A stretch of DNA of 64,000 nt from a bacterium (GTDB lineage Bacteria; Patescibacteriota; Minisyncoccia; Phycocordibacterales; UBA2100). Of this stretch, positions 11,224 to 58,748 are shown one piece after another; position 1 is the first letter of the stretch; every line of letters begins with the position of its first letter. The notes under the pieces were generated by a model. It saw only the letters and a program-made list of their open reading frames with translations. It made no database searches and had not been told where the DNA came from. Location: contig JAUSGQ010000015.1 in the NCBI GenBank assembly GCA_030674455.1, forward strand, positions 5,574-69,573, given 5' to 3'. The position numbers and the translations under genes are program-made.

Positions 11224-11267
11224 AAAATTGAAGCGCAACCTGCCCCGTAGCTCCGCTGGAGGCGGAT

Positions 11268-15177: not shown

Positions 15178-15211
15178 CCCTATCTTGCGCGGTAGCGTAA
15201 GATAGGGATGT
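15174..15211. promoter_or_regulatory. 38 bp palindrome ACATCCCTATCTTGCGC-GGTA-GCGTAAGATAGGGATGT overlapping the start codon of the PaaX-like gene
   Basis: Read from the sequence. A second copy lies at 15866-15902, immediately downstream of the same gene. Confidence 0.6.
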
Positions 15212-17068: not shown

Positions 17069-17071
17069 AAA

Positions 17072-17207
17072 GTGCCAATCAACGAATGAATTCCAATCTA
17101 CAAATAACTGCGAATAAAATACGCTCACCGTCTACAGGTGCCGACCAATGACCGGTCGGCCATTTGTAGCCATTTGTAGTATTCGGATGATTTGTATATT
17201 GGGACAT
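17072..17207. repeat. MITE-like intercistronic element R1 (ends GTGCCAATCAACGAATGAATTCCAATCTACAAAT ... ATTTGTATATTGGGAC), carrying the nested GTCTACAGGTGCCGACCAATGACCGGTCGGC palindrome
   Basis: Shares more than 100 bp with R5 (35290-35459) and R6 (37475-37640). Confidence 0.8.
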
Positions 17208-17210
17208 AGG

Positions 17211-17795
17211 TTATTTCACTGAAAGACGTTCGAATCTGACTACTTCTATCTTCTCGCCGAATTTCTGAATGGCTGAATCTATGAGCCCGCGAATCGTTAT
17301 CGTCGGGTCTTTTACATACGACTGTTCCAGAAGTATGCGTTCTTTGAGGTAGCTCTCGATCTTGCCCTCAACCGCGCGCACTCGCACCGCCTCGGGAAGA
17401 CTCTCGGCTTCTTTTTCAAACACTTCCAGAGCCGCCCGCTTGTCTGCATCTTTCACGTCCGCGCGCGACCTGAACTGCGGGTTCATCGCTGCGACATGCA
17501 TCGCGATTCCGTATGCCAATTTCGCAAATTCCTCGTTCTTCGCGACGAAGTCGGTCTCGCACGCGAGAACGACCGCTCCGACGACGCTTCCGCCGGCATG
17601 CGTGTAGGCGCTCGCGACCCCAGCGCCGAGCGCGCGGCCGGATTTCTTCGACGCTATCGAGGAACTCTGTTTGCGAAGAATTACTTTCGCCTTCTCCATG
17701 TCGCCACCAGCCTCCTGCAGAGCTTTCTTGCACTGCATGACTGAAACGCCGGTCTCATCTCGTAAAGATTTAATGAGTTCAGTAGTTATTTCCAT
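17211..17795 (-). CDS. tsf: Elongation factor Ts
   Basis: N-terminal UBA-like ITTELIKSLRDETGVSVMQCKKALQEAGGDMEKA and the dimerisation domain. Start taken at MEITTE; the longer ORF reads into repeat R2. Confidence 0.9.
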   Translation of the reverse strand: MEITTELIKSLRDETGVSVMQCKKALQEAGGDMEKAKVILRKQSSSIASKKSGRALGAGVASAYTHAGGSVVGAVVLACETDFVAKNEEFAKLAYGIAMHVAAMNPQFRSRADVKDADKRAALEVFEKEAESLPEAVRVRAVEGKIESYLKERILLEQSYVKDPTITIRGLIDSAIQKFGEKIEVVRFERLSVK

Positions 17796-18644: not shown

Positions 18645-18845
18645 GGTTGTATGTGATTGTTTTTTGGATTCTTTAAGCACCCCCTCGTCGCATTAAAACC
18701 ACGCGTTTTCTGAACTTCAAACGGGGCAGGTGTCGCGCGAGTGTATCACAGGCAATAGGCACTAGGCAAATGACCGTACAGTCCGTAACCAGCAGTTACT
18801 AGTTAGTTGTCAATGTACCAAGGGGCGCCCTTGCCGCTTCTTTGT

Positions 18846-18883
18846 ATTGCTTTAGCAAATGCGGCCGCATTTTCTAAAGCAAT
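18846..18883. promoter_or_regulatory. Palindrome ATTGCTTTAGCAAATGCGGCCGCATTTTCTAAAGCAAT (core ATGCGGCCGCAT) in the rpsB upstream region
   Basis: One of three ATGCGGCCGCAT-centred long palindromes in the window; the others are at 20989-21028 and 40015-40056. Confidence 0.6.
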
Positions 18884-19006
18884 ATGCAGTCATACCAACA
18901 TTTTCAGTATCCGATACTTAGTTATAGACCTAAGTATCTGGATGCAAAAATCGCGAGACGCTCTGGACACTTTCGCCACTTTGTACTTATTGGTATCGTA
19001 TAGGTT

Positions 19007-20988: not shown

Positions 20989-21028
20989 TATCATCGTAGC
21001 CGATGCGGCCGCATCGGCTATGATGATA
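20989..21028. promoter_or_regulatory. Palindrome TATCATCGTAGCCGATGCGGCCGCATCGGCTATGATGATA (ATGCGGCCGCAT core) abutting the relBE -35 TTGACA (21034-21039)
   Basis: Read from the sequence. Operator-like position immediately upstream of the TTGACA...TATA(T/A)A promoter, 30 bp before the relB ATG. Confidence 0.6.
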
Positions 21029-25318: not shown

Positions 25319-27049
25319 ATGCGTAATTCAGCAAAAAAATACCGTTCGTTTCCGCCCGTCGGCCTCAAAGACCGGACGTGGCCAAACAAGACCATAACCA
25401 AAGCGCCTCGCTGGTGCTCTGTCGATTTGCGCGACGGCAATCAGGCGCTCATAACGCCGATGAACCTTGAGCAGAAACTCAACATGTTCAAACTGCTCGT
25501 GGACATAGGATTCAAGGAAATCGAGGTGGGCTTCCCTTCCGCTTCGCAGGTGGAATTTGATTTTGTCCGCACGCTTATCGAGCGCAAGTTGATTCCGGCC
25601 GACGTTACCATCCAAGTGCTGACGCAAGCGCGCGAACACCTCATCGAAACCACGTGCCGCTCGCTCGTGGGAGCTAAGCGCGCGCTCATTCACGTGTACA
25701 ACTCCACTTCGGAACTCCAGCGCCGCGTCGTATTCCGAATGGGCAAGAAGGAGGTAAAAGAGCTGGCCGTCAAAGGAACCGCATGGACGCGCCAGTACAG
25801 CGAGAAATATCTTAATGGCACGGATGTCTTCTACGAATACAGTCCCGAAAGCTTCATGGGAACAGAGCTGGATTTCGCAGTTGAGGTGTGCGACGCAGTC
25901 GTCGATGAATGGAAACCGAAAGCTGGAGAAAGGGTCATCATCAATTTGCCCAACACGGTTGAACTCGCAACCCCCAATATTTACGCCGACCAAATCGAGT
26001 GGTTCTGCCGACACTTCAAATCACGCGACAAAGCGATTATCAGTCTTCACTGCCACAACGACCGCGGGAGCGCAGTTGCTGCGTCCGAGCTCGGCATCAT
26101 GGCCGGCGCCGAACGCGTGGAAGGCACGCTCTTCGGCAACGGCGAGCGCACCGGCAATGTCGACATCATCACGCTCGCGCTCAATCTCCACACACAGGGC
26201 ATCGACCCGGGACTCGACCTGCACGATATGGACCACTGCATTGAAGTCTACGAATCATGCACCGACCTCACCGTCCCCCCGCGCCATCCATACGCGGGCG
26301 AATTGGTCTTTACCGCATTTTCCGGCTCGCATCAAGACGCGATAGACAAGGGCTTCCGTGCGATGAAAGATTCCGGGAAAACTCTCTGGGAAGTTCCCTA
26401 CATCCCGATGGACCCCAAAGATGTCGGCCACACCTACGAGGCGGTCATCCGCATCAACAGCCAGTCCGGCAAGGGAGGCGTTGCGCACATTCTGCGCGTC
26501 GAGTTCGGCTACAACACACCGAAGGCGATGCACCCCGAGTTGGGCAAGATGATCCAACGCATTTCCGACGCGACCGGCCAAGAAGTACTGCCAGGAGTAA
26601 TCCGAAAAGCGTTTGAGGATGAATATCTGAATCGTTCGAGCCCAGTCTCGCTCGAGAGTTTCAAGATCAGCGACCAGAGCGGCCTAAATGGCGACGTCAC
26701 CTCAATTTCTGCAGTCATCAAAAAGGACGGGAAAAAGCGCACGGTTAAAGACACCGGCAACGGCCCTATCGATGCCTTCAGCAAAGCACTCAAGCGCGCT
26801 GGCGCTGGCCACTACACGTTCCTCTCATACGAGGAACACGCGCTCGGCAAAGGCGAAGACGCGCGCGCCGTCGCCTACATTCAAATAGCCGATGAACATG
26901 GCAAAGCATATTTCGGCGTCGGCACCGATTTCAACATTGTCGGCGCATCTCTGCGCGCTCTTTTGAGCGCACTGAATCGTTCGGAACAATCTAAAACCGA
27001 CAAATCAAAACAGAAAGCATCCGCCACCGGCGCAAAGAAACACACATGA
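25319..27049 (+). CDS. leuA: 2-isopropylmalate synthase (long form with C-terminal regulatory domain)
   Basis: DLRDGNQ, HCHND and a LeuA dimer/regulatory C-terminal domain. 576 aa. Confidence 0.9.
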   Translation: MRNSAKKYRSFPPVGLKDRTWPNKTITKAPRWCSVDLRDGNQALITPMNLEQKLNMFKLLVDIGFKEIEVGFPSASQVEFDFVRTLIERKLIPADVTIQVLTQAREHLIETTCRSLVGAKRALIHVYNSTSELQRRVVFRMGKKEVKELAVKGTAWTRQYSEKYLNGTDVFYEYSPESFMGTELDFAVEVCDAVVDEWKPKAGERVIINLPNTVELATPNIYADQIEWFCRHFKSRDKAIISLHCHNDRGSAVAASELGIMAGAERVEGTLFGNGERTGNVDIITLALNLHTQGIDPGLDLHDMDHCIEVYESCTDLTVPPRHPYAGELVFTAFSGSHQDAIDKGFRAMKDSGKTLWEVPYIPMDPKDVGHTYEAVIRINSQSGKGGVAHILRVEFGYNTPKAMHPELGKMIQRISDATGQEVLPGVIRKAFEDEYLNRSSPVSLESFKISDQSGLNGDVTSISAVIKKDGKKRTVKDTGNGPIDAFSKALKRAGAGHYTFLSYEEHALGKGEDARAVAYIQIADEHGKAYFGVGTDFNIVGASLRALLSALNRSEQSKTDKSKQKASATGAKKHT

Positions 27050-28140
27050 GCAAGACCGGCACCATAGCAGTCCTGCCGGGCGACGGCATCGGCCCCGAGA
27101 TAATGGCCTCAGCAATCAAGGTCTTGGACGCAGTCAGCGCGAAATGCGGCCACACATTTGAGACAAAAGAAGGATTAACCGGCGGCCTCGCGTACGACAA
27201 ATTCGGCGTCCACCTGCCGGAAGAGACAATAAAAATCTGTGAAGCTTCCGACGCAATCCTCTTCGGCGCCGTCGGCGGTCATGTTTCCGACCAGGAATCC
27301 CCGCGCTGGAAAGATGCCGAAAAGAACGTCATCCTTGGGCTTCGCAAGAAATTCAATCTGTTCGCCAACCTGCGCCCGCTCAAAGTCTGGCCCGGAACGG
27401 AATCTTTTAGCCCGCTTCAGGAGCGCTTCATCAAAGGCACCGACGTTTTAATCGTGCGCGAACTTATCGCCGGTCTCTACTTCGGCCCGATGCGCCGCTT
27501 TGAAGAGAATGGAGAAATTACAGCGGAAGAAACGAGCCGCTACACATGGAAACAAATCGAGAACGTCGTGCGCATCGCGTTTCAGGCCGCGCAAAAGAGA
27601 AAAAAGAAACTCACCGTCGTCGACAAAGCGAATGTGCTGGAAACGTCGCGTCTCTGGCGCGAAGTCGCGCGCAAAATCCAGCTCGAGTTCCTTGATGTCG
27701 CCATGGATTTTATGTTCGTCGACAACGCGGCCCAACAGCTCGTTCGCTCACCCGCTTCGTTTGATGTCATTGCGACAGACAACATGTTCGGCGACATTTT
27801 AAGCGACCTCGGCGGCGCCGTCGTCGGCTCTCTCGGCTTGGTACCTTCCGCCAGCATATCCGCCAAAGGCGGAGAAAAGAAATTCGGCCTTTACGAACCC
27901 GCCCACGGCTCCGCGCCTGACATTGCAGGGAAAGGAATCGCGAACCCGACCGCGCAAATCCTCTCGCTCGCGATGCTCCTGCGCTACACCTACGAGCTAG
28001 ACAAAGAGGCGCAGGCAATTGAGGAAGCGGTGCTCGCAGCATGGAAAGCAGGCAAGAAAACGAAAGACCTCGCGGCCCCGGGCGAAGCGAGTCTTTCTAC
28101 CGATGAGTTCACATCTTGCGTCATCGAGAGATTGAAGTAA
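27046..28140 (+). CDS. leuB: 3-isopropylmalate dehydrogenase
   Basis: MSKTGTIAVLPGDGIGPEIM..., NMFGDILSDLGG, GSAPDIAGKG. Confidence 0.9.
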   Translation: MSKTGTIAVLPGDGIGPEIMASAIKVLDAVSAKCGHTFETKEGLTGGLAYDKFGVHLPEETIKICEASDAILFGAVGGHVSDQESPRWKDAEKNVILGLRKKFNLFANLRPLKVWPGTESFSPLQERFIKGTDVLIVRELIAGLYFGPMRRFEENGEITAEETSRYTWKQIENVVRIAFQAAQKRKKKLTVVDKANVLETSRLWREVARKIQLEFLDVAMDFMFVDNAAQQLVRSPASFDVIATDNMFGDILSDLGGAVVGSLGLVPSASISAKGGEKKFGLYEPAHGSAPDIAGKGIANPTAQILSLAMLLRYTYELDKEAQAIEEAVLAAWKAGKKTKDLAAPGEASLSTDEFTSCVIERLK

Positions 28141-35289: not shown

Positions 35290-35459
35290 ACTTGTACCAA
35301 TCAACGAATGAATTCCAATCTACAAATAACTGCGAATGAACAACTCGCACCGTCTACAGGTGCCGACCAATGACCGGTCGGCCATTTGTAGCCATTCGCC
35401 CGCCTGCGCCGAGGCTTCGGCGGGCAGGTAGTATTCGGATGATTTGTAGATTGGGACAT
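35290..35459. repeat. MITE-like intercistronic element R5 (sufS-sufU junction) with nested GTCTACAGG and GC-hairpin modules
   Basis: Near-identical to R6 over about 165 bp. Confidence 0.85.
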
Positions 35460-35467
35460 ATAGTTTT

Positions 35468-36901: not shown

Positions 36902-37468
36902 TCATAGTTTTAATAATGCGGAACGGATTTCTTTTGATTCCGCGGGAGGAAACTCATCCACAAACGACTCCAGAAATCCGCGCACAATCATTTTCTTCGC
37001 CTCTTTGCGGGAAAGTCCTCGAGTCGCGAGATAAAACAGTTCCTCCTCGCCGACTTTTCCCACCGTGGCGCCGTGTCCGGCCTTGACTTCATTTTCCAAG
37101 ACTTCGAGCCGCGGAATTGCACCCGCGCGCGCGCCCTGCGAAAGCAAAATTGCGTGTTCATTCAAATCCGCGTCCGCGTTTTTCGCTCCCTTCTTGATAA
37201 CGACGAGCCCTTCGTAGTTTGCAACAGCGTCTCCATCCAGCACGCCTTTGACGAGAGTTCGGGAAAAAGTGTTAGGTGCGTCGTGAATAACCTCGGTCTC
37301 CAATTTGAACATGCCCTTTTTCGCAAAGAAAATGCAAAGTACCTTGACCGACCCGCCGGGCGCATCCATTAGAATCCGTGCTTTTACATGGCGGTCGCCA
37401 CGGCCCAACCATACGATAGGAACAATTCTTTTTTCGTCGACTCCTACATGTACGTCAATAGTTTCCAT
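36902..37468 (-). CDS. sufD: SufD-like Fe-S assembly protein (short form)
   Basis: Beta-helix core and a C-terminal helical region similar to SufB/SufD. Start taken at METIDV; the track's upstream extension reads into R6. Confidence 0.7.
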   Translation of the reverse strand: METIDVHVGVDEKRIVPIVWLGRGDRHVKARILMDAPGGSVKVLCIFFAKKGMFKLETEVIHDAPNTFSRTLVKGVLDGDAVANYEGLVVIKKGAKNADADLNEHAILLSQGARAGAIPRLEVLENEVKAGHGATVGKVGEEELFYLATRGLSRKEAKKMIVRGFLESFVDEFPPAESKEIRSALLKL

Positions 37469-37474
37469 AGTTAT

Positions 37475-37640
37475 GTGCCAATCAACGAATGAATTCCAAT
37501 CTACAAATAACTGCGAATAAAATACGCTCACCGTCTACAGGTGCCGACCAATGACCGGTCGGCCATTTGTAGCCATTCGCCCGCCTGCGCCGAGGCTTCG
37601 GCGGGCAGGTAGTATTCGGATGATTTGTAGATTGGGACAT
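37475..37640. repeat. MITE-like intercistronic element R6 (sufB-sufD junction)
   Basis: TGTGCCAATCAACGAATGAATTCCAATCTACAAAT...GATTTGTAGATTGGGACAT. About 97% identical to R5. Confidence 0.85.
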
Positions 37641-37647
37641 ACGATAT

Positions 37648-40014: not shown

Positions 40015-40056
40015 ATATTGCTGTAGCAAATGCGGCCGCATTTGCTACAGCAATAT
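40015..40056. promoter_or_regulatory. Perfect 42 bp palindrome ATATTGCTGTAGCAAATGCGGCCGCATTTGCTACAGCAATAT upstream of the suf operon
   Basis: Read from the sequence. Same ATGCGGCCGCAT core and near-identical arms to 18846-18883. Confidence 0.65.
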
Positions 40057-40083
40057 GCAACTGGAATCATTTCTCCAAATTCG

Positions 40084-41373
40084 CTAAATAATAAATTTAA
40101 AGACGGGGCTGTCAGTCTTCAAAAGCTCATACGACATGCCGATAGCGTCCATTCGCTTCAGCAATGGCTTTAGGTCTTCTTTTTTCGCGAGTTCGATTCC
40201 CACGAGCGCCGGACCGCTTTCGCGATTATTCTTCTTCGTGTACTCAAAAAGAGTAATGTCATCCGTTGGCCCGAGTGCCTCGTTTAAGTATCGGCGAAGA
40301 GCGCCGGGCCTCTGGGAGAAATTTATGATGAAGTAATGTTTCAGCCCCTGGTGTACAAGGCTGCGTTCTATTATTTCGGGATATCGGCTGATGTCGTTGT
40401 TACCGCCGGAGAGAATACACACGACTGTTTTTCCCTTTCCGCCGGAGGCGGATCCTCCTCCGGAGGACAATTCTCCTTTAAGCTGTTCGAGCGCGGCAAT
40501 AGAAAGCGCGCCCGCCGGCTCCGCGACAATGCCATCGCGCTGGTAGAGAGAAATCATCGTCTCGCACACCTTGCCTTCCGGCACTAAAAGTAATTTATCA
40601 AGAACCTTCTTGCAGAGTTGAAACGTGAGATCGCCAACAGTTCGCACCGCCGCTCCGTCAACGAACGTGTCCAGTTTTTCGAGCGTTACAACCTTGCCTG
40701 CTTTCAGCGCTTTGTCCATTGAGGGCGCACCGGCAGGTTCCGCTCCGATTATTTTTACCGAAGGATTCTTCGATTTGAGATACGAGCCGATGCCCGCGCA
40801 CAATCCGCCGCCGCCGATTGGCACAACAACTGTATCAACTTTCTCGATGCCGGCAGCAGACAACTGTTCAATTATTTCCGCGCCCACCGTTCCTTGTCCG
40901 GCAATTACATACGGGTCGTTGAATGGGTGCACCAAAACCATTCCCTTCTTTTTCGACACACTCTGTGCTTCCGCAAACGATTCATCGAACGTGTCGCCAT
41001 AAAGTTCAATGGTGACGTATGAGCCGCCGAGGGTGCGCACGCGGTCAATCTTTTGCTTTGGGGTGTTCTGCGGCATGTAAATCACGCCTTGGGTTTTCAG
41101 GGCTTTGCAGCTAAATGCCACGCCCTGCGCATGATTTCCGGCGCTTGCGCACACGATGCCGCGCTTTTTCTCCGCCTCGGTGAGTAGGCGCATTCTGTTG
41201 TATGCCCCGCGCAGTTTGTATGAACGAACGACCTGCAAATCTTCCCGCTTCAAATAAATCTTCGCGCCATACCTTTCCGAAAGCGGTTTGTGCAATTGGA
41301 GAGGCGTTTCTTTCACCACATCGCGCAAATGTTCGCGCGCTTCTTCCACCATTTTTACATCAAATTGTTTCAT
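40084..41373 (-). CDS. ilvA: Threonine dehydratase (biosynthetic, with C-terminal regulatory domain)
   Basis: PLP-lysine region (..SYKLRGAYN..), GNHAQGVA, a Gly-rich loop, SGGNND. Contains an inserted SSGGGSASGG linker encoded by a GGATCC palindrome (40439-40467). Confidence 0.9.
   Translation of the reverse strand: MKQFDVKMVEEAREHLRDVVKETPLQLHKPLSERYGAKIYLKREDLQVVRSYKLRGAYNRMRLLTEAEKKRGIVCASAGNHAQGVAFSCKALKTQGVIYMPQNTPKQKIDRVRTLGGSYVTIELYGDTFDESFAEAQSVSKKKGMVLVHPFNDPYVIAGQGTVGAEIIEQLSAAGIEKVDTVVVPIGGGGLCAGIGSYLKSKNPSVKIIGAEPAGAPSMDKALKAGKVVTLEKLDTFVDGAAVRTVGDLTFQLCKKVLDKLLLVPEGKVCETMISLYQRDGIVAEPAGALSIAALEQLKGELSSGGGSASGGKGKTVVCILSGGNNDISRYPEIIERSLVHQGLKHYFIINFSQRPGALRRYLNEALGPTDDITLFEYTKKNNRESGPALVGIELAKKEDLKPLLKRMDAIGMSYELLKTDSPVFKFII
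40439..40467. repeat. GGATCC-centred palindromic element TCCGCCGGAGGCGGATCCTCCTCCGGAGGA, in-frame within ilvA
   Basis: The 18 nt TCCGCCGGAGGCGGATCC stretch is identical in trpA (45499-45527) and aroC (46892-46920). Confidence 0.7.
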
Positions 41374-44953: not shown

Positions 44954-45796
44954 GTGACTCCTTGCGTGCAAGGTGTCTCCTTGATGCATTTCACCACCAT
45001 GAATAACCTTGGAACACTACTTTCGGAATCTAGAGGCAAAAAACCTCTCTTCATGGCGCATATGATTGCCGGATACCCCACAATTGAGGATTCGGAAAAA
45101 GTGGCGGAAGCTCTTGTAAAAGGCGGAGCGGATATTATTGAACTGCAAATTCCTTTTTCCGACCCCATGGCCGATGGTCCGGCAATCGCGGTTGCGAGCG
45201 AAGAAGCAATAAAGGCAGGCGCGACGGTTGCAAAATCTCTTTCCCTTCTGAAAAAGGTGGCGGCTCTTGGAAAGCCGGTTGCAGTGATGACATACGTAAA
45301 TATTCCTTTCAGATACGGAATTCCCAAATTCGTAAAATCTATTGCGGATGCGGGCGCAAGCGCCCTAATAGTCCCGGACTGCCCGTTCGATACTCAAGAA
45401 GGTCAGACCTTCTTCGACAGTTGCAAAGAATGTGGCGTGTATTTTGTTCCCGTCGTTTCGCCCGGTGTGCCAAAGGAACGGCTGGAACAACTAGCATCCG
45501 CCGGAGGCGGATCCTCCTCTGGAGGAAAAGATTCAAGAGGATTCGTCTATTGCACCTCGCGCCAAGGAATCACGGGAGCAAACAGCAAATTCGCGAAAGA
45601 ACTGTTTGATTTCGTGAAAGAATTGAAACAAATTTTCAAGCTCCCCATAGCCGTCGGCTTCGGCGTTAAATCAAAGGAAGATGTCGCCGAGCTGGCACAA
45701 GTAGCCGATATAGTCATCGCCGGCAGTGTTTTTGTGAATGCAATTAAGAATTCCGGCATTGGACATGTTGAACCTCTGGTGCGAACGCTGATGTAA
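44954..45796 (+). CDS. trpA: Tryptophan synthase alpha chain
   Basis: ...MIAGYPT..., ...IIELQIPFSDPMADGP.... Contains an inserted AGGGSSSGG linker from the GGATCC palindrome (45499-45527). Start uncertain (44954, 44978 or 44993). Confidence 0.85.
   Translation: MTPCVQGVSLMHFTTMNNLGTLLSESRGKKPLFMAHMIAGYPTIEDSEKVAEALVKGGADIIELQIPFSDPMADGPAIAVASEEAIKAGATVAKSLSLLKKVAALGKPVAVMTYVNIPFRYGIPKFVKSIADAGASALIVPDCPFDTQEGQTFFDSCKECGVYFVPVVSPGVPKERLEQLASAGGGSSSGGKDSRGFVYCTSRQGITGANSKFAKELFDFVKELKQIFKLPIAVGFGVKSKEDVAELAQVADIVIAGSVFVNAIKNSGIGHVEPLVRTLM
45499..45527. repeat. GGATCC-centred palindromic element TCCGCCGGAGGCGGATCCTCCTCTGGAGGA, in-frame within trpA
   Basis: Shares an identical 18 nt half with the ilvA and aroC copies. 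Confidence 0.7.
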
Positions 45797-45872: not shown

Positions 45873-46259
45873 TTAGGATTGTCCAACATTATCAAACCCT
45901 TGTAAGGGCTCATTATGCTCCCAATCATCTGTAAAACGTGTTTTTATTAGATCCCCCCATTTAGATACTTTTACTAACAATTCCATTGCATCTCGTACAG
46001 ATTCCGAGGTTGTCGTTCCAGCATGCAGCGAATCCGCATGCGCAAATCCCACAGCTCGAGGGAAGTTAGGGTGCGTGTCTAGATATTTCGCGAAGTTAGC
46101 TGCATATCTTGCAACTTCTCTTTTATGAGCGTCCATACAATTATCCAAATATTCGTGCCAAATTTGCTGATTTTTAACCTCGAAAGATGGCAGAGCCGCG
46201 CGCCAATTTTTTAGAACTTCCGTGCCCTGACGGTTGAGATGCTTATCCATTTTGGGCAC
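45873..46259 (-). CDS. Hypothetical protein
   Basis: 128 aa, overlaps aroC by 17 nt, co-directional with aroC and aroAK. No family recognised. Confidence 0.4.
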
Positions 46260-47355
46260 GATTGCGCAAAAAGTGATCCATGATGACGAGTGCTGACATC
46301 GCGTCTACTATCGGAACTGCGCGCGGAAGAACACACGGGTCGTGGCGGCCGGAGGCCTCAAGCTTCGTCGCTTCGCCTCCTATTTTCACCGTTTCTTGTT
46401 CCTTGCGTATCGTTGAAACCGGCTTGAAAACAACGCGGAAGTGAATTGTTTCTCCGTTCGAAATCCCGCCTATGGTGCCGCCGGCGTTGTTCGTTTTTGT
46501 GTGTATGTTGCCGTTTTTATCGGTGTAAAACGGGTCGTTGTGTTCGCTTCCGCGCATGCCGACGCTTCGAAAGCCGAGACCGATGTCGAATCCCTTAACC
46601 GCGTTGATTGAGAGCATGGCACGCCCTAGGTCTGAATTGAGTTTGTCGAACACAGGCTCGCCCAGACCGGCGGGTACGTTTCGGATGACACCCTGAATGA
46701 TGCCACCGATAGAATCGCCGTCTTTTCGCACCTCGTCAACAAGCTCGATCATCTTCTCGGCAACTTTTTGGTCGGGACAGCGGATGATATTTGATTCAAT
46801 GTCTTCCGCCTTCACCGCATTGAAATCCACTTCGGCCTTGATATCGCCCACCTGGGTCACGTAGCTCAATATTTCGACGCCGGAATGTTTTCCGCCGGAG
46901 GCGGATCCGCCTATGGCGGACAGATATTTCTGCGCGATAGCGCCAGCGGCAACGCGCGCGAGAGTTTCCCGCGCCGAAGCGCGGCCGGACCCCCTCCAAT
47001 CACGAGTCCCGTATTTCGCTTCGTAAGTGTAATCGGCATGCGATGGGCGATATAAATCTTTGAGAGCCAGATAATCCTCCGGCTTCGCGTCTTCGTTGAG
47101 TACCATCATGAGAATCGGCGTACCCGTCGTCTTCCCCTCAAAGTAACCAGAAAGAATGTGAATTTTGTCGGACTCTTTTCTCGGAGTCGTTATTTTACTT
47201 TGCCCCGGTCGCCGTCTATCAAGCGCCACCTGGATTTCCTCTTCCGTGATTTCAATACCCGGCGGGCATCCGTCTACCACAACGCCCACAGCCCCGCCGT
47301 GCGACTCGCCGAATGTCGTTATGCGAAAAAGTTGTCCGAATGAATTTCCTGCCAT
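46243..47355 (-). CDS. aroC: Chorismate synthase
   Basis: [33 protein letters not shown]... is the canonical AroC N-terminus. Contains an inserted IGGSASGG linker from the GGATCC palindrome (46892-46920). Confidence 0.9.
46892..46920. repeat. GGATCC-centred palindromic element TCCGCCGGAGGCGGATCCGCCTATGGCGGA, in-frame within aroC
   Basis: Shares an identical 18 nt half with the ilvA and trpA copies. Confidence 0.7.
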
Positions 47356-52617: not shown

Positions 52618-52694
52618 TCTTAACGAGTTTACGAGTTTAGAAACAGCTTACACCCAGCACCTTTGTTTCAGTAAGAAACGAAGGTGCTGGGTTA
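52618..52694 (-). promoter_or_regulatory. Hairpin ACCCAGCACCTT-TGTTTCAGTAAGAAACG-AAGGTGCTGGGT plus conserved leader ...TTAAGAAAAACTAACATG upstream of trpE (copy 3)
   Basis: See 1114-1191 and 47364-47500. Confidence 0.5.
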
Positions 52695-53008: not shown

Positions 53009-53893
53009 CTAATCTTCTACCTGTCGAGACGCAGATATTTTCATCACCAGGAAAAACGAAGGCAACCGGCATAATCCGTATCGGCTAAATACATACCTCT
53101 CACTGCGTATTATTCTTTGTAATGAAATACTCTTATTCTGTACGCTGGCAATTTGCATTAAAGCCCGGAAAACAAGTTCTATATCTTCGCACGCGTCTTT
53201 GCCCTTTGTAAGAAAATTGAGATGTTTCCTATCAGCTGCAGGAACTCCAAAAGGATATGCGGGAAATTTCCCTTCCAAAATAATTTCTCCGTTTGGTTTG
53301 GTGATACGAACTGCCTCTTCGAATGTCTTTTCCTGATCTGTATCGAAGTCTAGGAAATACGACAGAAATGCCAGATCAAAATGATTTGTCGGGAAGCCTA
53401 GGTGTTCTATCCTTCCCGTATATCCGTGGAAACCATTCGCGCGAATTATCGCGGTACTTGCCGGACTTATGTCTGTACCATGTAATTGACGGCTGTTAAC
53501 GCCAAACTGGTGGTGTAAAAAACGGAGGAGTTCGTTGCTTCCCGCTCCAATATCGATAATTTGTAAATCATTGAGTTTAGGCGCCGCAATGCCGGTTATT
53601 TTATTAAATTGCTCCGGGAAAAGGAGTGCATTCAAATACATATAGTTTGGTCGGTTGCCCTGGTATTCGATATCGTAGATAGAGGCAATAACCTGTTCCG
53701 AACCGGAACTCATCTTATAGGCATGTTTCGCGAGCCTTTGCACTGCATAAAGCCCCGCCATGCGCTTTAATGCCTCGAATCTAAATGCCCAAAGCGGGCG
53801 GCAAAAAAGTCCTGATAGACCGGACAGGGTTTTGATGTGCACGTATTTCGCGCCAAACGAATTTGCGAAGCGAAGTAGTTTGCCGTCTTGCAT
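53009..53893 (-). CDS. Class I SAM-dependent methyltransferase
   Basis: Motif I IIDIGAGSNELL and post-I acidic D (HGTDIS). No DPPY/NPPY, so probably not a DNA methyltransferase. Confidence 0.6.
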   Translation of the reverse strand: MQDGKLLRFANSFGAKYVHIKTLSGLSGLFCRPLWAFRFEALKRMAGLYAVQRLAKHAYKMSSGSEQVIASIYDIEYQGNRPNYMYLNALLFPEQFNKITGIAAPKLNDLQIIDIGAGSNELLRFLHHQFGVNSRQLHGTDISPASTAIIRANGFHGYTGRIEHLGFPTNHFDLAFLSYFLDFDTDQEKTFEEAVRITKPNGEIILEGKFPAYPFGVPAADRKHLNFLTKGKDACEDIELVFRALMQIASVQNKSISLQRIIRSERYVFSRYGLCRLPSFFLVMKISASRQVED

Positions 53894-53905: not shown

Positions 53906-56725
53906 TCACTGAAACGGCTGCATCATGGGGTCGGCAGGTTTCTCCTCGACATATCGCGCGCGAATATCGGCCTCTATCTCTTCCCTGTCTTTTCCGTATG
54001 TCAGATATGAAAGTTCTTTGAGCGCTGGCACTTTGCTGGAATCCGAAACCTCCGGCTTCACCGTCTGTATAGTGAACGGCCGCGCCGGTACCCCGTTTAC
54101 AAGGAGTGACATCACAGCGTTGTAGTTAGGGAGATTTTCCAAATCGGGCGCGGTGAAACCCGGTTCAAATTGCTTTGCAAGGAATTCGGCATCGGTTGTG
54201 CCTACGCGGAATGCCGCTTTCGTACCGACGTTGCCGATGACGGCATCGCGTATTTTCTCGTCTAACTGCGCGATGAACTGGTGCGCGATGATGAGCGAGA
54301 GTTTGTATTTTCGCGCCTCGGAAAGAATAGTTCCGATAGAGGGTGTCGCAAAGTTCTGGAATTCGTCGATGTAGAGATAGAACACCGGAAGATTGCCGCC
54401 TACCGAATCAATGCGTGAGAATGCGGCCTGGAGGAATTTGGAAACCAGAACAAGCCCCAGGAGCGAAGTGTTCCTGTCGCCTAAACGCCCCTTTGAGAGG
54501 TTCGCGAGGAAGATTTTCTTGTCGTCCATGATTTTTCGGAAGTCGAACGCGGATTTTTCCTGCGCGACGATAGGCCGCATGATGTCGTTGGCGAGAAAGA
54601 CGTCGAATTTGCTGGAAATGTACGGTGTCACGTTCTCGAGCGAAGCATCTCCGCCAGCCGCTTCGGCGATTTTCCGCCAGAATTGGATGATGACCGGATT
54701 TTTGCACTTCGAGATCTTGAGGTCGCGGAATGTGGGGTCGGCAAATACGCGCGGAACTTCGAGGAACGTGGAACCCGATTCCGGGTCTTCGACGACGAGT
54801 TGAACGGCGTTGCGATAGTATTGCTCGAACATCGGGCCGAAGGCTTCAGGAACATCCGCATAGAGCTTACGGAAAATCCCATACACTTCATCCACCACGA
54901 ATGTTTTCATTTCCGGCTTTGAGCGGTCGTATTCCAGCATGTTGAGGCCCATCGGGCGTGCTGTGTAGGCAGGGTCAAAGTAGATGACATCGTTCATTCG
55001 CTCCGGAGGAATTGCCGCGAGAATGTCTTCGATGTCGTTTCCGTGCGGGTCTATGAACGCGACCCCTTCCCCGTTCTTGATGTCCTGAATAATCATGTTC
55101 TTGATAAGCGTCGTTTTTCCTGTACCCGTCTGCCCGATGACGTAGCAATGACGCATGCGGTCGGCTGGTGCGAATCGAACCGGAGTTTCCGTAGCACCGT
55201 ATCGATTGATACCAAGAACAACACCTTCCGAAGCCATTGCGACGGGCGCCGGCATCTGCTTGGCAAACGCCCGCTTGAGTTCGCGCGAGGTCGTAACGCG
55301 TTCGGCGGTAAAGTGGAACATAGTCGTCACCTCCGCAAGACTAAGCGGCATCGTAATTGACCGGTCGAAAGCGCGATATATGTAATCGCGCAAAAAACTC
55401 TGCAGGCTCCAACTGCTTACTTCTTTAAAGCCCATGTGATTCCCCTTTGGGTCGTCGTATTGGTTGAACGGCGCCATCAAATTCTGGAGAATATCCTGCG
55501 CGCGTTTTTTATCAGGCGCCGAAGCCACAAGACGGATAAGCACGGGGGCAATGCGACTCTTAATTTTGCGTCCGATGACTTCCGTTGCGACTTGATCTGT
55601 GGCGCGCCTATATTCCTTGTCTTTTTCTTCTTTGTAAAGTTCCGGCATGAAAATTGCCCTTCCAAGTTCAGAGGCAAAATCTCCAATAACGGTTTCCGGA
55701 ACTTGGAGCGCCCGAGAAATATGCCAACCCTTTTCTATCACGCGGATCATTTTCTTATAGTGTCTGTTGTATCTGTCGCCTTCATTGCCTACGACAAACT
55801 GGATAGCAGCGCCTTCCCCATGCTTAGCGAGCTTTGCAAACGCGGAAAGCAATACGTTCATAGGGTCGTGCTCGAACATCTCGGCAGTCTTCAGAGGAAA
55901 GGCGGGGTGGTCGGCAAGCTTCCCTATCGCGCCGGCGTTTTCCCCTTCATAATTAAAAATATTGTAGTCGCCGCGGCTCTCGGAAATACGCGCGTTCGGA
56001 AATACTGATGAAATTAAGCGCTCGGCGAGGACTTGCTTGGCGCGCGGAACACCGAGATAGAGGGAAGCTTCCTCGGACCCGTTCGGAACCGCGATTTCAA
56101 GAGAGAACCCTTCGTCCCGAGATATGAGCGACGTGAGACCCGCATAGAGTTGTTCGGAGGATGAAAGAATTTGCTCCAATTTCATCTGCCCCATCTGCTT
56201 CTCATCTTTTTCCCCATGCGCCTGCGGTTGTATCTCAAAAAGAACCATGTGAAGCGCGCGCTTCACTTTTTCCGGCGGCGCAAATCCTTTTTCAGGAAGC
56301 CCTTCGGCAATGTAGCGCACCAGCATCCTGTGCAAATCGTCTTCCAAATGCGGATTTTTCATGCGAGCCGCCACCGAAAGTGCGTTGCGTATACCATGTT
56401 CGGCGACAATCTTGAGAAGCCCGTCCATTTGCGCATCGTGCTCTTCCGGTTCAAGGTTCAGCGCGTGCCGGATCGTGTCATGCTCCGGCATGACTGCCTC
56501 CTCGTGGAGAACTGCGTGCGCGGGCGTCGCCGCGTACGCGGCGATTTCGCGTTTTGCAATTCGGTCCTTCTCGATGCGATTTTCTGCGGTTTCTAATTCC
56601 CCCGTCTTTTCTTTTACCTGCTCGCGTAAATAAGCAAGCTCCTCTTGCGGAGATTTGAATTTTTCCGCCGTCTTAGTGATACGCTCTGCAATAAAGCGCG
56701 GTTCGTGTGTAGCCAATGCCACCAT
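53906..56725 (-). CDS. Large P-loop ATPase with a VirD4/TraG/TraD (T4SS coupling protein)-like C-terminal half and a unique roughly 480 aa N-terminal domain; no TM segments
   Basis: Walker A VIGQTGTGKTT, FIDPHGND (as in DPKGE of VirD4), Walker B-like YLYIDEFQNF, followed by a TraM-recognition-like region. Confidence 0.55.
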   Translation of the reverse strand: MVALATHEPRFIAERITKTAEKFKSPQEELAYLREQVKEKTGELETAENRIEKDRIAKREIAAYAATPAHAVLHEEAVMPEHDTIRHALNLEPEEHDAQMDGLLKIVAEHGIRNALSVAARMKNPHLEDDLHRMLVRYIAEGLPEKGFAPPEKVKRALHMVLFEIQPQAHGEKDEKQMGQMKLEQILSSSEQLYAGLTSLISRDEGFSLEIAVPNGSEEASLYLGVPRAKQVLAERLISSVFPNARISESRGDYNIFNYEGENAGAIGKLADHPAFPLKTAEMFEHDPMNVLLSAFAKLAKHGEGAAIQFVVGNEGDRYNRHYKKMIRVIEKGWHISRALQVPETVIGDFASELGRAIFMPELYKEEKDKEYRRATDQVATEVIGRKIKSRIAPVLIRLVASAPDKKRAQDILQNLMAPFNQYDDPKGNHMGFKEVSSWSLQSFLRDYIYRAFDRSITMPLSLAEVTTMFHFTAERVTTSRELKRAFAKQMPAPVAMASEGVVLGINRYGATETPVRFAPADRMRHCYVIGQTGTGKTTLIKNMIIQDIKNGEGVAFIDPHGNDIEDILAAIPPERMNDVIYFDPAYTARPMGLNMLEYDRSKPEMKTFVVDEVYGIFRKLYADVPEAFGPMFEQYYRNAVQLVVEDPESGSTFLEVPRVFADPTFRDLKISKCKNPVIIQFWRKIAEAAGGDASLENVTPYISSKFDVFLANDIMRPIVAQEKSAFDFRKIMDDKKIFLANLSKGRLGDRNTSLLGLVLVSKFLQAAFSRIDSVGGNLPVFYLYIDEFQNFATPSIGTILSEARKYKLSLIIAHQFIAQLDEKIRDAVIGNVGTKAAFRVGTTDAEFLAKQFEPGFTAPDLENLPNYNAVMSLLVNGVPARPFTIQTVKPEVSDSSKVPALKELSYLTYGKDREEIEADIRARYVEEKPADPMMQPFQ

Positions 56726-58172: not shown

Positions 58173-58748
58173 ATGATAACGCCCAATATAAAAACTCTAA
58201 ATAATAAAAGTCGGCGCGAGCGAACTGTGCAAGTCTTAAAGATGATAGCCATCGGCGCACTTATTATTGGTATCGGTGCCGTGCCATCTCCGCGAGCAAT
58301 GAGTAAACTTCTTTCTGAATTGGCACTTGGAGATAACCAAAGAAATAGAAAGTATGCGGGCCGAAAAATCCGTGAACTGAAGAAGCGAGGATATCTTGAG
58401 GAGCATGGAGTTAGATATGCTGTCAGCGACAAAGGCCAGGAAATACTTTCTCGCGAACACATTACGAATCTTGTAATACCAAGGCCACGCAAGTGGAACG
58501 GGAAGTGGCATTTTATCATGTTTGACATTCCGCTAACAGATTCGTATGCACGTCAGGCCCTGAATAAGATTCTACTCGGCATGGGTCTGGTGCAGTATCA
58601 GCAGTCGGTTCTTATATACCCGTATCCAATCAAAGAAACTGTTCTGCATGTCTGCAGGTTTTACAAAGTCGCCCGTTATGTATCGTTCGTTACCGCGGAA
58701 GATATTGATGGCTTTGATAAACTCAAAAGACAGTTCGGCTTAACATGA
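58173..58748 (+). CDS. PaaX-like transcriptional regulator (paralog 2)
   Basis: N-terminal TM (IAIGALIIGIGAV), wHTH (HGVRYAVSDKGQEIL), and RKWNGKWHFIMFDIPLTDSYARQALNKILLGMGLVQYQQSVLIYPY, paralogous to 15210-15791. Confidence 0.55.
   Translation: MITPNIKTLNNKSRRERTVQVLKMIAIGALIIGIGAVPSPRAMSKLLSELALGDNQRNRKYAGRKIRELKKRGYLEEHGVRYAVSDKGQEILSREHITNLVIPRPRKWNGKWHFIMFDIPLTDSYARQALNKILLGMGLVQYQQSVLIYPYPIKETVLHVCRFYKVARYVSFVTAEDIDGFDKLKRQFGLT

What the first reader, a model, noticed from the sequence alone, without database searches (positions are those of the whole stretch)
40439..40467. A GGATCC-centred palindrome encoding a Gly/Ser-rich linker is inserted into ilvA, trpA and aroC, with an identical 18 nt half
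- Three biosynthetic enzymes each carry an extra roughly 10-residue Gly/Ser/Ala linker encoded by TCCGCCGGAGGCGGATCC followed by a near-palindromic second half: ilvA SSGGGSASGG at 40439-40467, trpA AGGGSSSGG at 45499-45527, and aroC IGGSASGG at 46892-46920.
- The 18 nt half is identical in all three, and it is antisense in two of the genes. That argues for recent insertion of a small palindromic element that is open in both orientations, not convergent sequence.
- A degenerate intergenic copy, CTGGAGGCGGATGGTACCGG, lies at 11249-11275.
- The linker motif plus a BamHI site resembles engineered (GGGS)n linkers, so an assembly or synthetic artefact must be excluded. Its presence in three chromosomal housekeeping genes and in intergenic DNA favours a natural element.
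Basis: seen in the sequence. Interest (0 to 1): 0.75.

Follow-up and report, generated by a model that had tools for sequence, protein, structure and literature searches.

The report
Tiny double-hairpin mobile element inside genes
Three housekeeping enzymes of an uncultured groundwater bacterium each carry the same 30-base palindromic insert, a copy of a widespread and apparently undescribed miniature mobile DNA element that lands inside genes and survives there as a harmless Gly/Ser surface loop.

Summary
Three 30-nt inserts lie at 40438-40467 (ilvA), 45497-45526 (trpA) and 46891-46920 (aroC). They share an identical 18-mer. Each is two 15-nt hairpins (6-bp stem, 3-nt loop) joined at GGATCC.

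Nearly all orthologues lack the inserts: 118 of 120 AroC, 135 of 135 TrpA and more than 110 of 120 IlvA. The junctions are precise, with no target-site duplication, at TTN^NAA-like sites.

It is not an artefact. The same 30-mer pattern occurs in at least 120 genome loci from CPR/Patescibacteria, Omnitrophota, PVC bacteria and others.

Coding copies sit in frame 0 (S-A-x-G-G-S-A-x-G-G) in 55 of 59 and 62 of 67 cases. Stem changes are compensatory within each half. Copies decay to 5-residue SAxGG scars.

The best reading is a new family of ultra-small, non-autonomous double-hairpin mobile elements. The mobilising enzyme is unknown. One lead is a conserved cassette in which the element sits in the anticodon loop of a partial tRNA-Glu copy, immediately upstream of a small GIY-YIG nuclease gene.

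I found no description in the searchable literature.

The parts
40438..40467 (.). 30-nt double-hairpin element in ilvA (residues 303-312, SSGGGSASGG)
   Evidence: Exact pattern match. Precise 30-nt insertion between TTG and AAG relative to L121. Absent from more than 110 of 120 orthologues. In the AlphaFold model the only stretch with pLDDT below 50 (residues 306-312) falls inside the insert, in the coil between H286-303 and E316-321.
45497..45526 (.). 30-nt double-hairpin element in trpA (residues 167-176 from the ATG at 44999, SAGGGSSSGG)
   Evidence: GCA|30 nt|AAA GAT against the empty GCC|AAA GAC in four syntenic relatives. Absent from 135 of 135 diverse TrpA representatives. The same site is filled in a diverged metagenomic relative, L233.
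46891..46920 (.). 30-nt double-hairpin element in aroC (residues 146-155, [10 protein letters not shown])
   Evidence: CTG|30 nt|AAA against L121 CTT|AAA. 118 of 120 orthologues are empty; only the window and the Kaiserbacteria GW2011_GWA2_49_19 cluster are filled. Predicted coil with low pLDDT.
27859..27873 (+). Solo 15-nt hairpin unit TCCGCCAAAGGCGGA in frame in leuB (SAKGG); probably the remnant of a doublet
   Evidence: Exact half-unit match, against 0 in shuffles. This loop is 4 residues longer than in solved LeuB structures.
40846..40860 (-). Decayed remnant (TCTGCTGCCGGCATC, SAAGI) at a second ilvA site ('site A') that holds a full element in 11 close relatives
   Evidence: The ancestral state is EQL|KE, and the filled state is EQL[12 protein letters not shown].
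40084..41373 (-). Host gene ilvA (threonine ammonia-lyase)
44999..45796 (+). Host gene trpA (tryptophan synthase alpha). The ORF opens at a GTG at 44954; the likely start is the ATG at 44999.
46243..47355 (-). Host gene aroC (chorismate synthase; identical to NCBI MDO8552334.1)
27046..28140 (+). Host gene leuB (3-isopropylmalate dehydrogenase)

Best explanation
The three inserts are copies of a family of ultra-small, non-autonomous mobile DNA elements.

**Anatomy.** Each copy is 30 bp, made of two adjacent 15-nt hairpin units. A unit has a 6-bp stem, TCCGCC/GGCGGA or the compensated variant TCCTCC/GGAGGA, and a free 3-nt loop. The two units abut at GGATCC.

**Shown**
- A copy is added precisely, with no target-site duplication, at short AT-rich sites of the type TTN^NAA. 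In genes this is usually just 5' of a Lys codon.
- The element is 10 codons long and has no stop codon in either orientation. In frame 0 it encodes S-A-x-G-G-S-A-x-G-G either way round.
- In frame, in a tolerant helix-strand loop, it yields a working enzyme with an extra disordered loop. Almost only such copies survive in genes.
- Copies then decay by point mutation and by slippage loss of one unit, leaving 5-residue SAxGG scars.

**Inferred**
- Compensatory stem changes within each half, and related elements with different stems but the same 6+3+6 architecture, indicate that the hairpins themselves are recognised. That could be as single-stranded DNA or as extruded mini-cruciforms.
- Insertion would therefore be catalysed in trans by a structure-specific nuclease or transposase.

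**Speculative**
- The best current candidate is a small stand-alone GIY-YIG (UPF0213-type) nuclease. In many CPR loci its gene is immediately preceded by a copy of the element sitting in the anticodon loop of a partial tRNA-Glu copy.
For: **The insertions are precise and polymorphic**
- Codon alignments show exact 30-nt differences without target-site duplication at trpA, ilvA site B, aroC and ilvA site A.
- Orthologue surveys: IlvA, AroC with 118 of 120 empty, TrpA with 135 of 135 empty.
- A second IlvA site is filled in 11 relatives and decayed in the window.

**There are many copies at unrelated sites**
- At least 120 genome loci, all MAG or SAG. 61 are labelled CPR, 12 Omnitrophota and 12 PVC, with others besides.
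- At least 120 metagenome stretches, about 102 distinct sites, carry the window's exact variant.

**Target preference**
- T at -2 in 80% and A at +2 in 79% of copies.
- A TTK^MAA-like consensus in the metagenome sites.

**Selection for a benign frame**
- 55 of 59 and 62 of 67 coding copies are in frame 0.
- The insert is the only low-confidence coil in an otherwise confident IlvA model.

**Hairpin constraint**
- Under the two-hairpin structure, 19 cells change on both sides against 2.7 +/- 1.4 in shuffles (0 of 500). The single long hairpin is not supported.
- The loops of the two halves are not complementary (17 observed, 15.4 expected).
- The predicted DNA minimum-energy fold is two hairpins for the ilvA and trpA copies and the family consensus; the aroC copy instead folds as one long hairpin.
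- 9 non-canonical double hairpins with other stems occur in 1.87 Mb, against about 0.1 expected.

**Decay series**
- Arrays of 1 or 2 units only, never 3.
- P0066 and L123 carry one unit where the window carries two.

**GIY-YIG link**
- About 10-12 sites share the layout tRNA-Glu(1-35) + element + GIY-YIG ORF + intact tRNA-Glu.
- Among homologues chosen by protein similarity alone, 2 of 4 carry the element in the same place and 1 of 4 carries a non-canonical double hairpin.
- All 16 ORFs of this subfamily in the loci held lie within about 110 nt of an element.
Against: - No transposase, recombinase or GIY-YIG gene was found in the 64-kb window. Pfam was run on 30 ORFs and the GIY-YIG HMM was run on the window.
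- No act of transposition is demonstrated. No empty and filled alleles were found within one population.
- GIY-YIG enzymes are not known to act as transposases. The cassette association could simply mean that the loop of a dispensable pseudo-tRNA is a tolerated hot spot.
- Most cassette loci were found through the element itself, which is an ascertainment bias.
- Both flanks of the target are constrained independently. This does not fit the one-sided target rule of known single-strand hairpin transposases.
- About half of the variant stems are uncompensated, as expected if many copies are simply decaying.
- Gain and loss are not resolved. An empty IlvA allele (P0011) nests among filled ones, and the filled aroC alleles are not each other's closest relatives.
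Confidence: 0.6

Rival explanations
1. This rival assumes the same element moved by a HUH/Y1 single-strand DNA transposase working in trans, either an IS200/IS605 TnpA or a REP-associated RAYT. The two hairpins would play the roles of the left and right end hairpins, and the element would excise and insert through a single-stranded intermediate without target duplication.
For: - No target-site duplication and precise junctions.
- Recognition by hairpin structure, as implied by stem covariation.
- A possible precise loss of the element (P0011).
- The same window carries 12 copies of a REP-like hairpin with a CGTC/GTAG-type tag. That suggests a RAYT-like activity somewhere in this genome.
Against: - The element has no GTAG or CGTC tag and no room for the guide or cleavage sequences that lie outside the hairpins.
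- Both flanks of the target are constrained independently, instead of one conserved 4-5-nt site on the 5' side only.
- Element orientation shows no strong bias relative to gene direction (40 to 27).
- No Y1 transposase gene was seen in the window.
- REP families are normally lineage-specific, whereas this sequence spans phyla.
Confidence: 0.15
2. This rival needs no dedicated enzyme. Copies would spread by replication template switching, or by short-patch illegitimate recombination. A nascent strand ending in TT would jump to an existing copy, or to taken-up DNA carrying one, copy the hairpins, and return at AA.
For: - The flanks of donors and targets share the same TT/AA microhomology.
- There is no target-site duplication.
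- Strong hairpins stall polymerases, from established knowledge of quasi-palindrome template switching.
- CPR bacteria are thought to rely on DNA uptake, which could seed copies across phyla.
Against: - Two or three nucleotides of microhomology are very little to account for about 100 distinct sites of one exact 30-mer.
- The model does not explain why the stems covary while the loops vary freely between copies within one genome.
- It does not explain the fixed order of loop types (NRA first, TYN second) in about 120 of 126 copies.
- It does not explain the conserved association with GIY-YIG cassettes.
Confidence: 0.12
3. This rival treats the 30-mer as a host-selected functional DNA or RNA site, such as a protein-binding site or an uptake or segregation signal, and not as selfish DNA. 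It would be installed in genes where a Gly/Ser loop is tolerated.
For: - The stems are conserved across phyla, like parS-type sites.
- The stems stay intact in GIY-YIG cassettes even though the adjacent proteins have diverged to about 60% identity.
Against: - Presence and absence differ between close relatives, and copies decay to scars at orthologous sites.
- Density is only 3 per 64 kb.
- Copies lie in both orientations, in genes and between genes alike.
- Rfam has no matching family.
- Creating such a site still requires an insertion mechanism.
Confidence: 0.07
4. This rival is an artefact: an engineered (GGGS)n/BamHI linker, vector contamination or an assembly chimera.
For: The peptide and the GGATCC site look like laboratory linkers. 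The literature hits for the sequence and peptide strings were cloning primers and synthetic constructs.
Against: - The element is antisense in two of the three genes.
- The same element appears in hundreds of environmental contigs from many projects, assemblers and platforms, including 0.7-1.6 Mb long-read contigs.
- Copies have diverged and decayed.
- The aroC insertion is present in Kaiserbacteria proteins deposited independently since the GW2011 and RIFCSP genome sets.
Confidence: 0.01

Closest known systems
Rickettsia palindromic elements (RPE; Ogata et al. 2000, cited from memory; discussed in PMC1779305)
   Same: Short palindromic selfish DNA that inserts in frame into protein-coding genes. 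It is translated as an extra surface segment without destroying the protein. No transposase of its own is known.
   Different: RPEs are about 100-150 bp and confined to Rickettsia and its relatives. This element is 30 bp, is built from two 15-nt mini-hairpins, and is spread over CPR, Omnitrophota, PVC bacteria and other phyla. I saw no sequence resemblance, but this was not formally tested.
REP / REPIN elements mobilised by RAYT (Y1 HUH) transposases (PMC3733652)
   Same: A 20-40-nt GC-rich hairpin repeat, often occurring as inverted doublets. It is non-autonomous and recognised by its structure.
   Different: REPs carry a GTAG or CGTC tag, are extragenic by definition, and are lineage-specific. 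This element has no tag, about half of its copies are intragenic, and it shares one stem sequence across phyla. A separate REP-like family that does carry the tag exists in the same window.
Mitochondrial double-hairpin elements (Allomyces DHE) and yeast mitochondrial GC clusters (cited in PMC2800124 and PMC4478555; the original papers are recalled from memory)
   Same: Tiny mobile elements (about 26-80 nt) made of two hairpins. They are found between genes, in rRNA and in frame in protein genes. Their mobilising mechanism is unknown.
   Different: Those are organellar and eukaryotic, and their sequences are unrelated. Here the host is bacterial, the element is a fixed 2 x 15 nt, and there is a clear codon-level design (Ser, Ala and Gly in both orientations).
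MITEs and IS200/IS605-derived palindrome-associated elements (PMC10969869, PMC3184786)
   Same: Non-autonomous derivatives that depend on an enzyme encoded elsewhere. IS200/IS605 derivatives also insert without target duplication and use end hairpins.
   Different: MITEs are 50-500 bp with terminal inverted repeats and a target-site duplication. IS200/IS605 elements have asymmetric ends and a one-sided 4-5-nt target. None is as short as 30 bp.
Free-standing GIY-YIG homing-endonuclease cassettes and UPF0213/YhbQ-type GIY-YIG proteins (PDB 1zg2, 1ywl)
   Same: The gene adjacent to the element in the tRNA-Glu cassettes encodes a GIY-YIG catalytic domain alone. The cassette duplicates part of its tRNA target and occurs in tandem in L217, so it behaves like a mobile gene.
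   Different: Known GIY-YIG homing enzymes promote copying of their own gene by homologous repair. None is known to disperse a 30-bp hairpin element to non-homologous sites.

Membership tests
MITE | Flanked by a target-site duplication | tested here: not met
   Filled against empty sites at trpA, ilvA sites A and B, and aroC differ by exactly the 30 nt. A 7-nt flanking repeat appears in only about 15% of the genome-scan copies, all of them lying inside heptamer tandem repeats.
MITE | Terminal inverted repeats shared with an autonomous IS; size of about 50-500 bp | tested here: not met
   The element is 30 bp in total. No longer element bounded by the half units was found in 1.87 Mb of loci. 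No transposase was found in the window.
REP/REPIN-RAYT | Conserved GTAG or CGTC tetranucleotide at one end of the hairpin | tested here: not met
   The flank consensus is tTy|element|rAa, with no tag.
REP/REPIN-RAYT | Extragenic location | tested here: not met
   59 of 126 and 67 of 102 copies lie inside long open reading frames.
REP/REPIN-RAYT | A cognate RAYT gene in the same genome | not testable with these tools
   Only 64 kb of the genome is visible, and it contains no Y1 transposase.
IS200/IS605-type single-strand transposition (works like) | No target-site duplication; hairpin ends recognised by structure | tested here: met
   Precise junctions. Stem covariation within each half.
IS200/IS605-type single-strand transposition (works like) | Insertion 3' of a single conserved 4-5-nt target on one side only; strand-biased orientation | tested here: inconclusive
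   Both flanks are constrained, and independently of each other (79 sites with both, against 78.9 expected). In the metagenome set 46 sites have only the right half-site and 19 only the left. Orientation relative to the ORF is 40 to 27.
Rickettsia palindromic elements | In-frame insertion into protein-coding genes, tolerated as an extra peptide segment | tested here: met
Rickettsia palindromic elements | Element length of about 100-150 bp and RPE consensus sequences | tested here: not met
   The length is 30 bp. Sequence comparison with RPE consensus sequences was not run.
Engineered Gly/Ser linker or cloning scar | Sense orientation in the engineered gene; absence from independent environmental data | tested here: not met
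   The element is antisense in ilvA and aroC. Hundreds of environmental copies exist.
DNA uptake sequences | Very high density (about 1 per kb), arising by point mutation within one lineage | tested here: not met
   3 copies in 64 kb. The copies arise as 30-nt insertions and span many phyla.
Restriction-site-linked element (BamHI-like GGATCC) | Host genome avoids the hexamer beyond what its composition predicts | tested here: not met
   Outside the elements GGATCC is observed 2 times against 1.8 expected under a maximal-order Markov model. The pooled loci give an observed/expected ratio of 0.89.
Known RNA families (Rfam 15) | Match at the gathering score | tested here: not met
   Only tRNAs were found in the window and in the cassette loci.

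The most novel reading that the evidence does not exclude
The double-hairpin element is the minimal cargo of a new mobility system in which a stand-alone GIY-YIG (UPF0213-type) nuclease recognises 15-nt mini-hairpins and pastes them into TTN^NAA sites. That would make it the first GIY-YIG-driven, transposon-like element. Its activity would be a general source of new disordered Gly/Ser loops in the proteins of CPR and other ultra-small bacteria.
Probability: 0.2. Interest if true: 0.9.

Novelty: new variant of a known kind. Interest (0 to 1): 0.8.

Why it matters
**For mobile-DNA biology.** If confirmed, this would be among the smallest mobile elements described in bacteria, at 30 bp. Its sequence looks shaped to be harmless inside genes: it is a multiple of three, has no stop codon, and encodes Ser, Ala and Gly in both orientations. 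That is a sensible strategy in the tiny, gene-dense genomes of CPR bacteria. It would show that the selfish insertion into protein-coding genes known from Rickettsia is widespread among uncultured bacteria.

**For protein evolution and annotation.**
- It gives a concrete mechanism for lineage-specific loop insertions and loop-length change in conserved enzymes.
- It is a practical annotation flag, because SAxGGSAxGG and SAxGG loops are element scars and not functional motifs.

**For finding the enzyme.** The sequence-defined element and the candidate partner nuclease make the long-open question of how hairpin mini-elements move directly testable with oligonucleotides.

Tried and rejected
- **Restriction-modification link.** GGATCC looked depleted, at 5 sites against 14.5 expected. 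A maximal-order Markov model explains it (1.8 expected, 2 observed). What is depleted in this window is the tetramer GATC.
- **One long 30-nt hairpin, or a 12-bp-stem dumbbell circle.** The pairs this requires (4-27 and 12-19) are often broken and show no excess covariation.
- **Loops copied from the target flanks.** I checked this by eye on the window copies and on the listing. The loops do not match the flanks.
- **Target-site duplication.** None is present at sites that have an empty comparator. The 7-nt flanking repeats seen in some genome-scan copies are explained by insertion into heptamer tandem repeats.
- **Insertion into the centre of larger palindromes.** Flank complementarity beyond +/-3 nt is at control level.
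- **Phage origin.** Only 3 hits in 2.9 million viral contigs.
- **A transposase or nuclease in the window.** Pfam on 30 ORFs and the GIY-YIG HMM found none.
- **Rfam.** No family matched.
- **Literature.** Eight searches by sequence string, peptide and concept found only cloning primers, synthetic linkers and analogous systems. The paper on group I introns in Patescibacteria tRNA genes does not cover this.
- **Exact look-up of the window's IlvA.** It is not on record. The AroC look-up did identify the source record.
- **Dating gain against loss at IlvA site A.** DNA identity among the relevant relatives is only about 86%, so the tree cannot decide.
Full report
**1. The observation**

The 18-mer TCCGCCGGAGGCGGATCC occurs exactly three times in the window, at 40438, 45497 and 46891, all on the + strand. 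Even allowing three mismatches, shuffles give 0.06 matches.

Reading the sequence shows that each copy is the first part of a 30-nt unit:
- ilvA: TCCGCC-GGA-GGCGGA|TCCTCC-TCC-GGAGGA
- trpA: the same with TCT as the second loop
- aroC: TCCGCC-GGA-GGCGGA|TCCGCC-TAT-GGCGGA

The degenerate pattern TCCNCCNNNGGNGGATCCNCCNNNGGNGGA has 3 matches against 0.00 expected.

Each unit is 10 codons and in frame: SSGGGSASGG in ilvA (- strand), SAGGGSSSGG in trpA (+ strand) and [10 protein letters not shown] in aroC (- strand).

The supposed intergenic copy at 11252 is one half unit with a mismatch. About 1.35 such hits are expected by chance.

**2. The inserts are lineage-specific and precise**

The window comes from a CPR/Patescibacteria genome close to Candidatus Kaiserbacteria and Paceibacterota. 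The best IlvA hits are 80-82% identical. The AroC protein is identical to NCBI MDO8552334.1, which lies on a 90-kb MAG contig.

Among 120 IlvA homologues, only the window has the 10-residue insert at this site. More than 110 have nothing there, and five close relatives have 4-5-residue versions. 118 of 120 AroC homologues lack the insert. All 135 diverse TrpA representatives lack it.

Codon alignments with syntenic relatives give exact junctions:
- trpA: GCA|30 nt|AAA GAT against GCC|AAA GAC
- ilvA: TTG|30 nt|AAG GGA against TTG|AAG GGA
- aroC: CTG|30 nt|AAA against CTT|AAA

There is no target-site duplication.

A second site in IlvA (EQL|KE) carries a full element in 11 close relatives. The filled sequence is CAA TTA|TCCGCTAAAGGCGGATCCGCCTCCGGCGGA|AAA GAA, against the empty CAA TTG|AAA GAA. 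At that site the window and L121 retain only 15-nt decayed remnants.

Where the window has two units, P0066 has exactly one, which is what slippage between the two direct repeats would produce. Across all loci, arrays contain one or two units and never three.

**3. It is not an artefact, and it is not confined to this genome**

All are MAGs or SAGs from many projects, assemblers and platforms, including long-read contigs of 0.7-1.6 Mb.

By record title, the 120 stretches break down as follows:
- 61 CPR
- 12 Omnitrophota
- 12 PVC (Kiritimatiellae, Lentisphaerae, Planctomycetes, Verrucomicrobiota)
- 3 Ignavibacteria
- single records of Elusimicrobia, Melainabacteria, Chloroflexota and others
- 22 loosely labelled records

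A metagenome scan with the window's exact variant (TCCGCCGGAGGCGGATCCTCCTCYGGAGGA) also hit its limit. It gave 122 hits at about 102 distinct sites, mostly from groundwater metagenomes whose contig names point to the Hainich and Rifle-type data sets. One of these is the same trpA site in a diverged relative: the flanks are 72% identical while the element is identical (L233).

The AroC insertion is also present in a Kaiserbacteria GW2011_GWA2_49_19 protein cluster, which is held by NCBI, JGI, ENA and Logan on at least 7 contigs. Viral contigs gave only 3 hits.

**4. Anatomy of the family**

The consensus is tTy|TCCGCC-NRA-GGCGGA-TCCGCC-TYN-GGCGGA|rAa.
- T at -2 is present in 80% of copies and A at +2 in 79%. 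The two flanks are statistically independent of each other.
- The 102 metagenome sites give a target of the type TTK^MAA, and 88% have at least one half-site.
- The loops are highly variable, even within one genome. The loops of the two halves are no more complementary than chance (17 observed, 15.4 expected).
- The only variable stem position covaries within each half. G-C is replaced by T-A, A-T or C-G far more often than the marginal frequencies predict.

On 79 distinct sequences, the two-hairpin structure gives 98.4% paired cells against 95.2 +/- 0.3 in shuffles. It gives 19 double-sided changes against 2.7 +/- 1.4 (0 of 500 shuffles). The alternative single long hairpin shows no excess.

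DNA folding predicts two hairpins, at -10.7 to -12.5 kcal/mol, for the ilvA and trpA copies and for the consensus.

A structure-only search (6+3+6, twice) found 9 further double hairpins with different stems in 1.87 Mb, against about 0.1 expected. One example is CCACCC-TAC-GGGTGG|TCGCCC-GCA-GGGCGA. The architecture, and not only the sequence, is therefore conserved.

**5. Behaviour in genes**

59 of 126 copies in the genome scan and 67 of 102 in the metagenome scan lie in long open frames. Of these, 55 and 62 respectively are in frame 0, which reads S-A-x-G-G-S-A-x-G-G in either orientation. The other two frames would read PPEADPPPE-like or RRRRILLRR-like.

In the metagenome scan, both orientations relative to the gene occur (40 to 27). 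The next residue is Lys in 49 of 62 frame-0 copies there.

In an AlphaFold model of the window's IlvA (mean pLDDT 89.7), the only segment below 50 is residues 306-312. This lies inside the insert, in the coil between helix 286-303 and strand 316-321. In the weaker AroC model the insert is likewise a low-confidence coil between a helix and a strand.

The strong frame bias argues that the insert is translated and not removed at the RNA level. It also argues that selection keeps only benign copies.

**6. How it moves: what is shown and what is inferred**

Shown:
- identical 30-mers at about 100 unrelated sites
- precise insertion without duplication
- an AT-rich palindromic target
- structural constraint on the hairpins
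- decay after insertion

Inferred: a trans-acting enzyme that recognises the hairpins in single-stranded or cruciform DNA.

The window itself gives no candidate. Pfam on 30 ORFs of uncertain function found no transposase or nuclease.

A lead came from the metagenome hits. At about 10-12 sites the element sits between nucleotides 35 and 36 of a partial tRNA-Glu copy (TTCT^CAG or CTTT^CAC). It is followed, after tRNA nucleotides 36-41 and about 8 nt, by a roughly 88-residue ORF that runs into a complete tRNA-Glu gene. L217 has two such units in tandem.

The ORF is a GIY-YIG catalytic domain (PF01541, E = 5e-14). Its closest solved relatives are the UPF0213 proteins 1zg2 and 1ywl.

I then took homologues chosen by protein similarity only, with these results:
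- P0122 (67% identity) and P0126 (60%) carry the element in the same place, with different loops.
- P0131 carries a non-canonical double hairpin.
- P0132 carries none.

An HMM of this subfamily finds 16 ORFs in the held loci that contain a canonical element, all within about 110 nt of one. It finds none in the window. One 4.6-kb contig (L138) has both a cassette copy and an identical solo copy in a gene.

This association is real but is only partly free of ascertainment bias. It may mean that the nuclease uses the hairpins. It may equally mean that the loop of a dispensable pseudo-tRNA is a tolerated hot spot. I put the GIY-YIG mobiliser at about 0.2-0.25.

**7. Rivals**

- A HUH/Y1 enzyme (IS200/IS605 TnpA or RAYT) fits the lack of duplication and the recognition of hairpins. 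The window does carry a separate REP-like family with a CGTC/GTAG tag. Against it, this element has no tag and no room for guide sequences, and its target is two-sided.
- Enzyme-free template switching fits the TT/AA microhomology. It does not fit the fixed loop order, the covariation or the cassette association.
- A host-selected binding site is contradicted by presence/absence polymorphism and by decay at orthologous sites.
- An artefact or an engineered linker is excluded by section 3.

**8. Unresolved points**

- An empty IlvA allele (P0011) nests among filled ones in a neighbour-joining tree. DNA identity there is only about 86%, so precise excision, lineage sorting and independent gain cannot be separated.
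- The two filled AroC alleles (window and P0140, 85% identical) are separated by closer empty relatives at 86-89% identity. They also share a one-codon deficit next to the insert.
- Several half-unit remnants show a net gain of 12 nt, not 15.
- About 15% of the genome-scan copies lie inside heptamer tandem repeats.

**9. Comparison with known systems, and novelty**

In behaviour the element is closest to Rickettsia palindromic elements, which insert in frame into genes. It also resembles mitochondrial double-hairpin elements and GC clusters. In structure it resembles REP/REPIN elements. It fails defining features of each family: RPE length, the REP tag and extragenic location, and the terminal inverted repeats and target duplication of MITEs.

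Eight literature searches by sequence, peptide and concept found no description.

I therefore class it as a new variant of a known kind: a short, non-autonomous palindromic mobile element. It is unusual for its 30-bp size, its codon-level harmlessness, its spread across phyla and its candidate GIY-YIG partner.

Noticed in passing
window 17129, 23248, 29077, 35351, 36767, 37532, 56747 (+ strand); 41541, 36328, 8022, 3518, 3485 (- strand): A second palindromic repeat family with 12 copies: CGTCTACAG(G/A)TGCCGA...TCGGC. It is a REP-like hairpin with a CGTC/GTAG-type tag. Several copies are translated in frame inside genes.
- SufS carries an 11-residue insert (RLQVSTIDRST, 33 nt) that is absent from the L121 orthologue.
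- LeuC reads ...GRLQVPTMDRSA... and IlvE reads ...SSTDADAYSIGP....
- The element forms the C-terminal tail of RidA, which is 141 aa here against 125 aa in relatives.
   Followed up: partly
L149, L167, L169, L190, L212, L216, L217, L221, L252, L255, L256-258, L138/L185: A conserved cassette at tRNA-Glu genes of CPR bacteria. Its order is: partial tRNA-Glu copy (nt 1-41), a small UPF0213-type GIY-YIG ORF, then an intact tRNA-Glu. The double-hairpin element lies in the anticodon loop of the partial copy. The cassette is tandemly duplicated in L217. The D-loops of the pseudo-tRNAs in L190 and L255 carry further hairpin inserts.
   Followed up: partly
L069:6892, L086:755, L105:2306, L115:2008, L119:3541, L164:7266, L184:5952, L238:2772, L261:1124: Double hairpins with the same 6+3+6 (twice) architecture but different stem sequences. 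This suggests a larger superfamily than the TCCGCC/GGCGGA family that was scanned for.
   Followed up: partly
window, whole: The tetramer GATC is strongly depleted, with 65 observed against about 249 expected from base composition. The pooled loci from other genomes show no such depletion. Each element nevertheless carries a GATC at its centre.
   Followed up: partly
window 17162, 17858, 23997, 28217, 35414, 37595, 39124, 42839, 63050: Tandem 8-10-nt motifs (ATTTGTAG, ATTCGTAG, ATTGGGAC) lie immediately upstream of many start codons, in both orientations. They look like a shared promoter or leader module. Comparable short tandem repeats flank the element in other phyla (L044, L079, L081, L104).
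   Followed up: no
window 17071-17238, 35293-35460, 37474-37641: A 168-nt repeat with 3 copies. It gives identical N-termini (VSVFYSQLFVDWNSFVDWH) to ORFs 16646-17128 and 36902-37531. The true starts of these ORFs are probably downstream.
   Followed up: no
window 15210-15791 and 58173-58748: Two paralogous small proteins with a PaaX_M/Cas2-like domain and an N-terminal hydrophobic segment. A third member lies in the syntenic relatives L133 and L134. Their function is unknown.
   Followed up: no
window 53906-56725: A 939-residue ATPase with weak matches to TraG/VirD4 coupling proteins and HerA. It sits next to a methyltransferase (53009-53893).
   Followed up: no
window 18845-18888, 20996-21020, 40016-40059; 1115-1155, 52652-52692: Further palindromes occur in 2-3 copies each: ...GCAAATGCGGCCGCATTTGC..., and a terminator-like ACCCAGCACCTTTGTTTC...GAAACGAAGGTGCTGGGT.
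   Followed up: no
L005:4587 and 6408, L067:7325 (Kiritimatiellae STD1_155): In this genome the aroC-type variant of the element is embedded in a longer dispersed repeat (...cataggaattt|element|caatccgtctttgttgtcattccgagcgtag...). The element can therefore be carried along inside other repeats.
   Followed up: no
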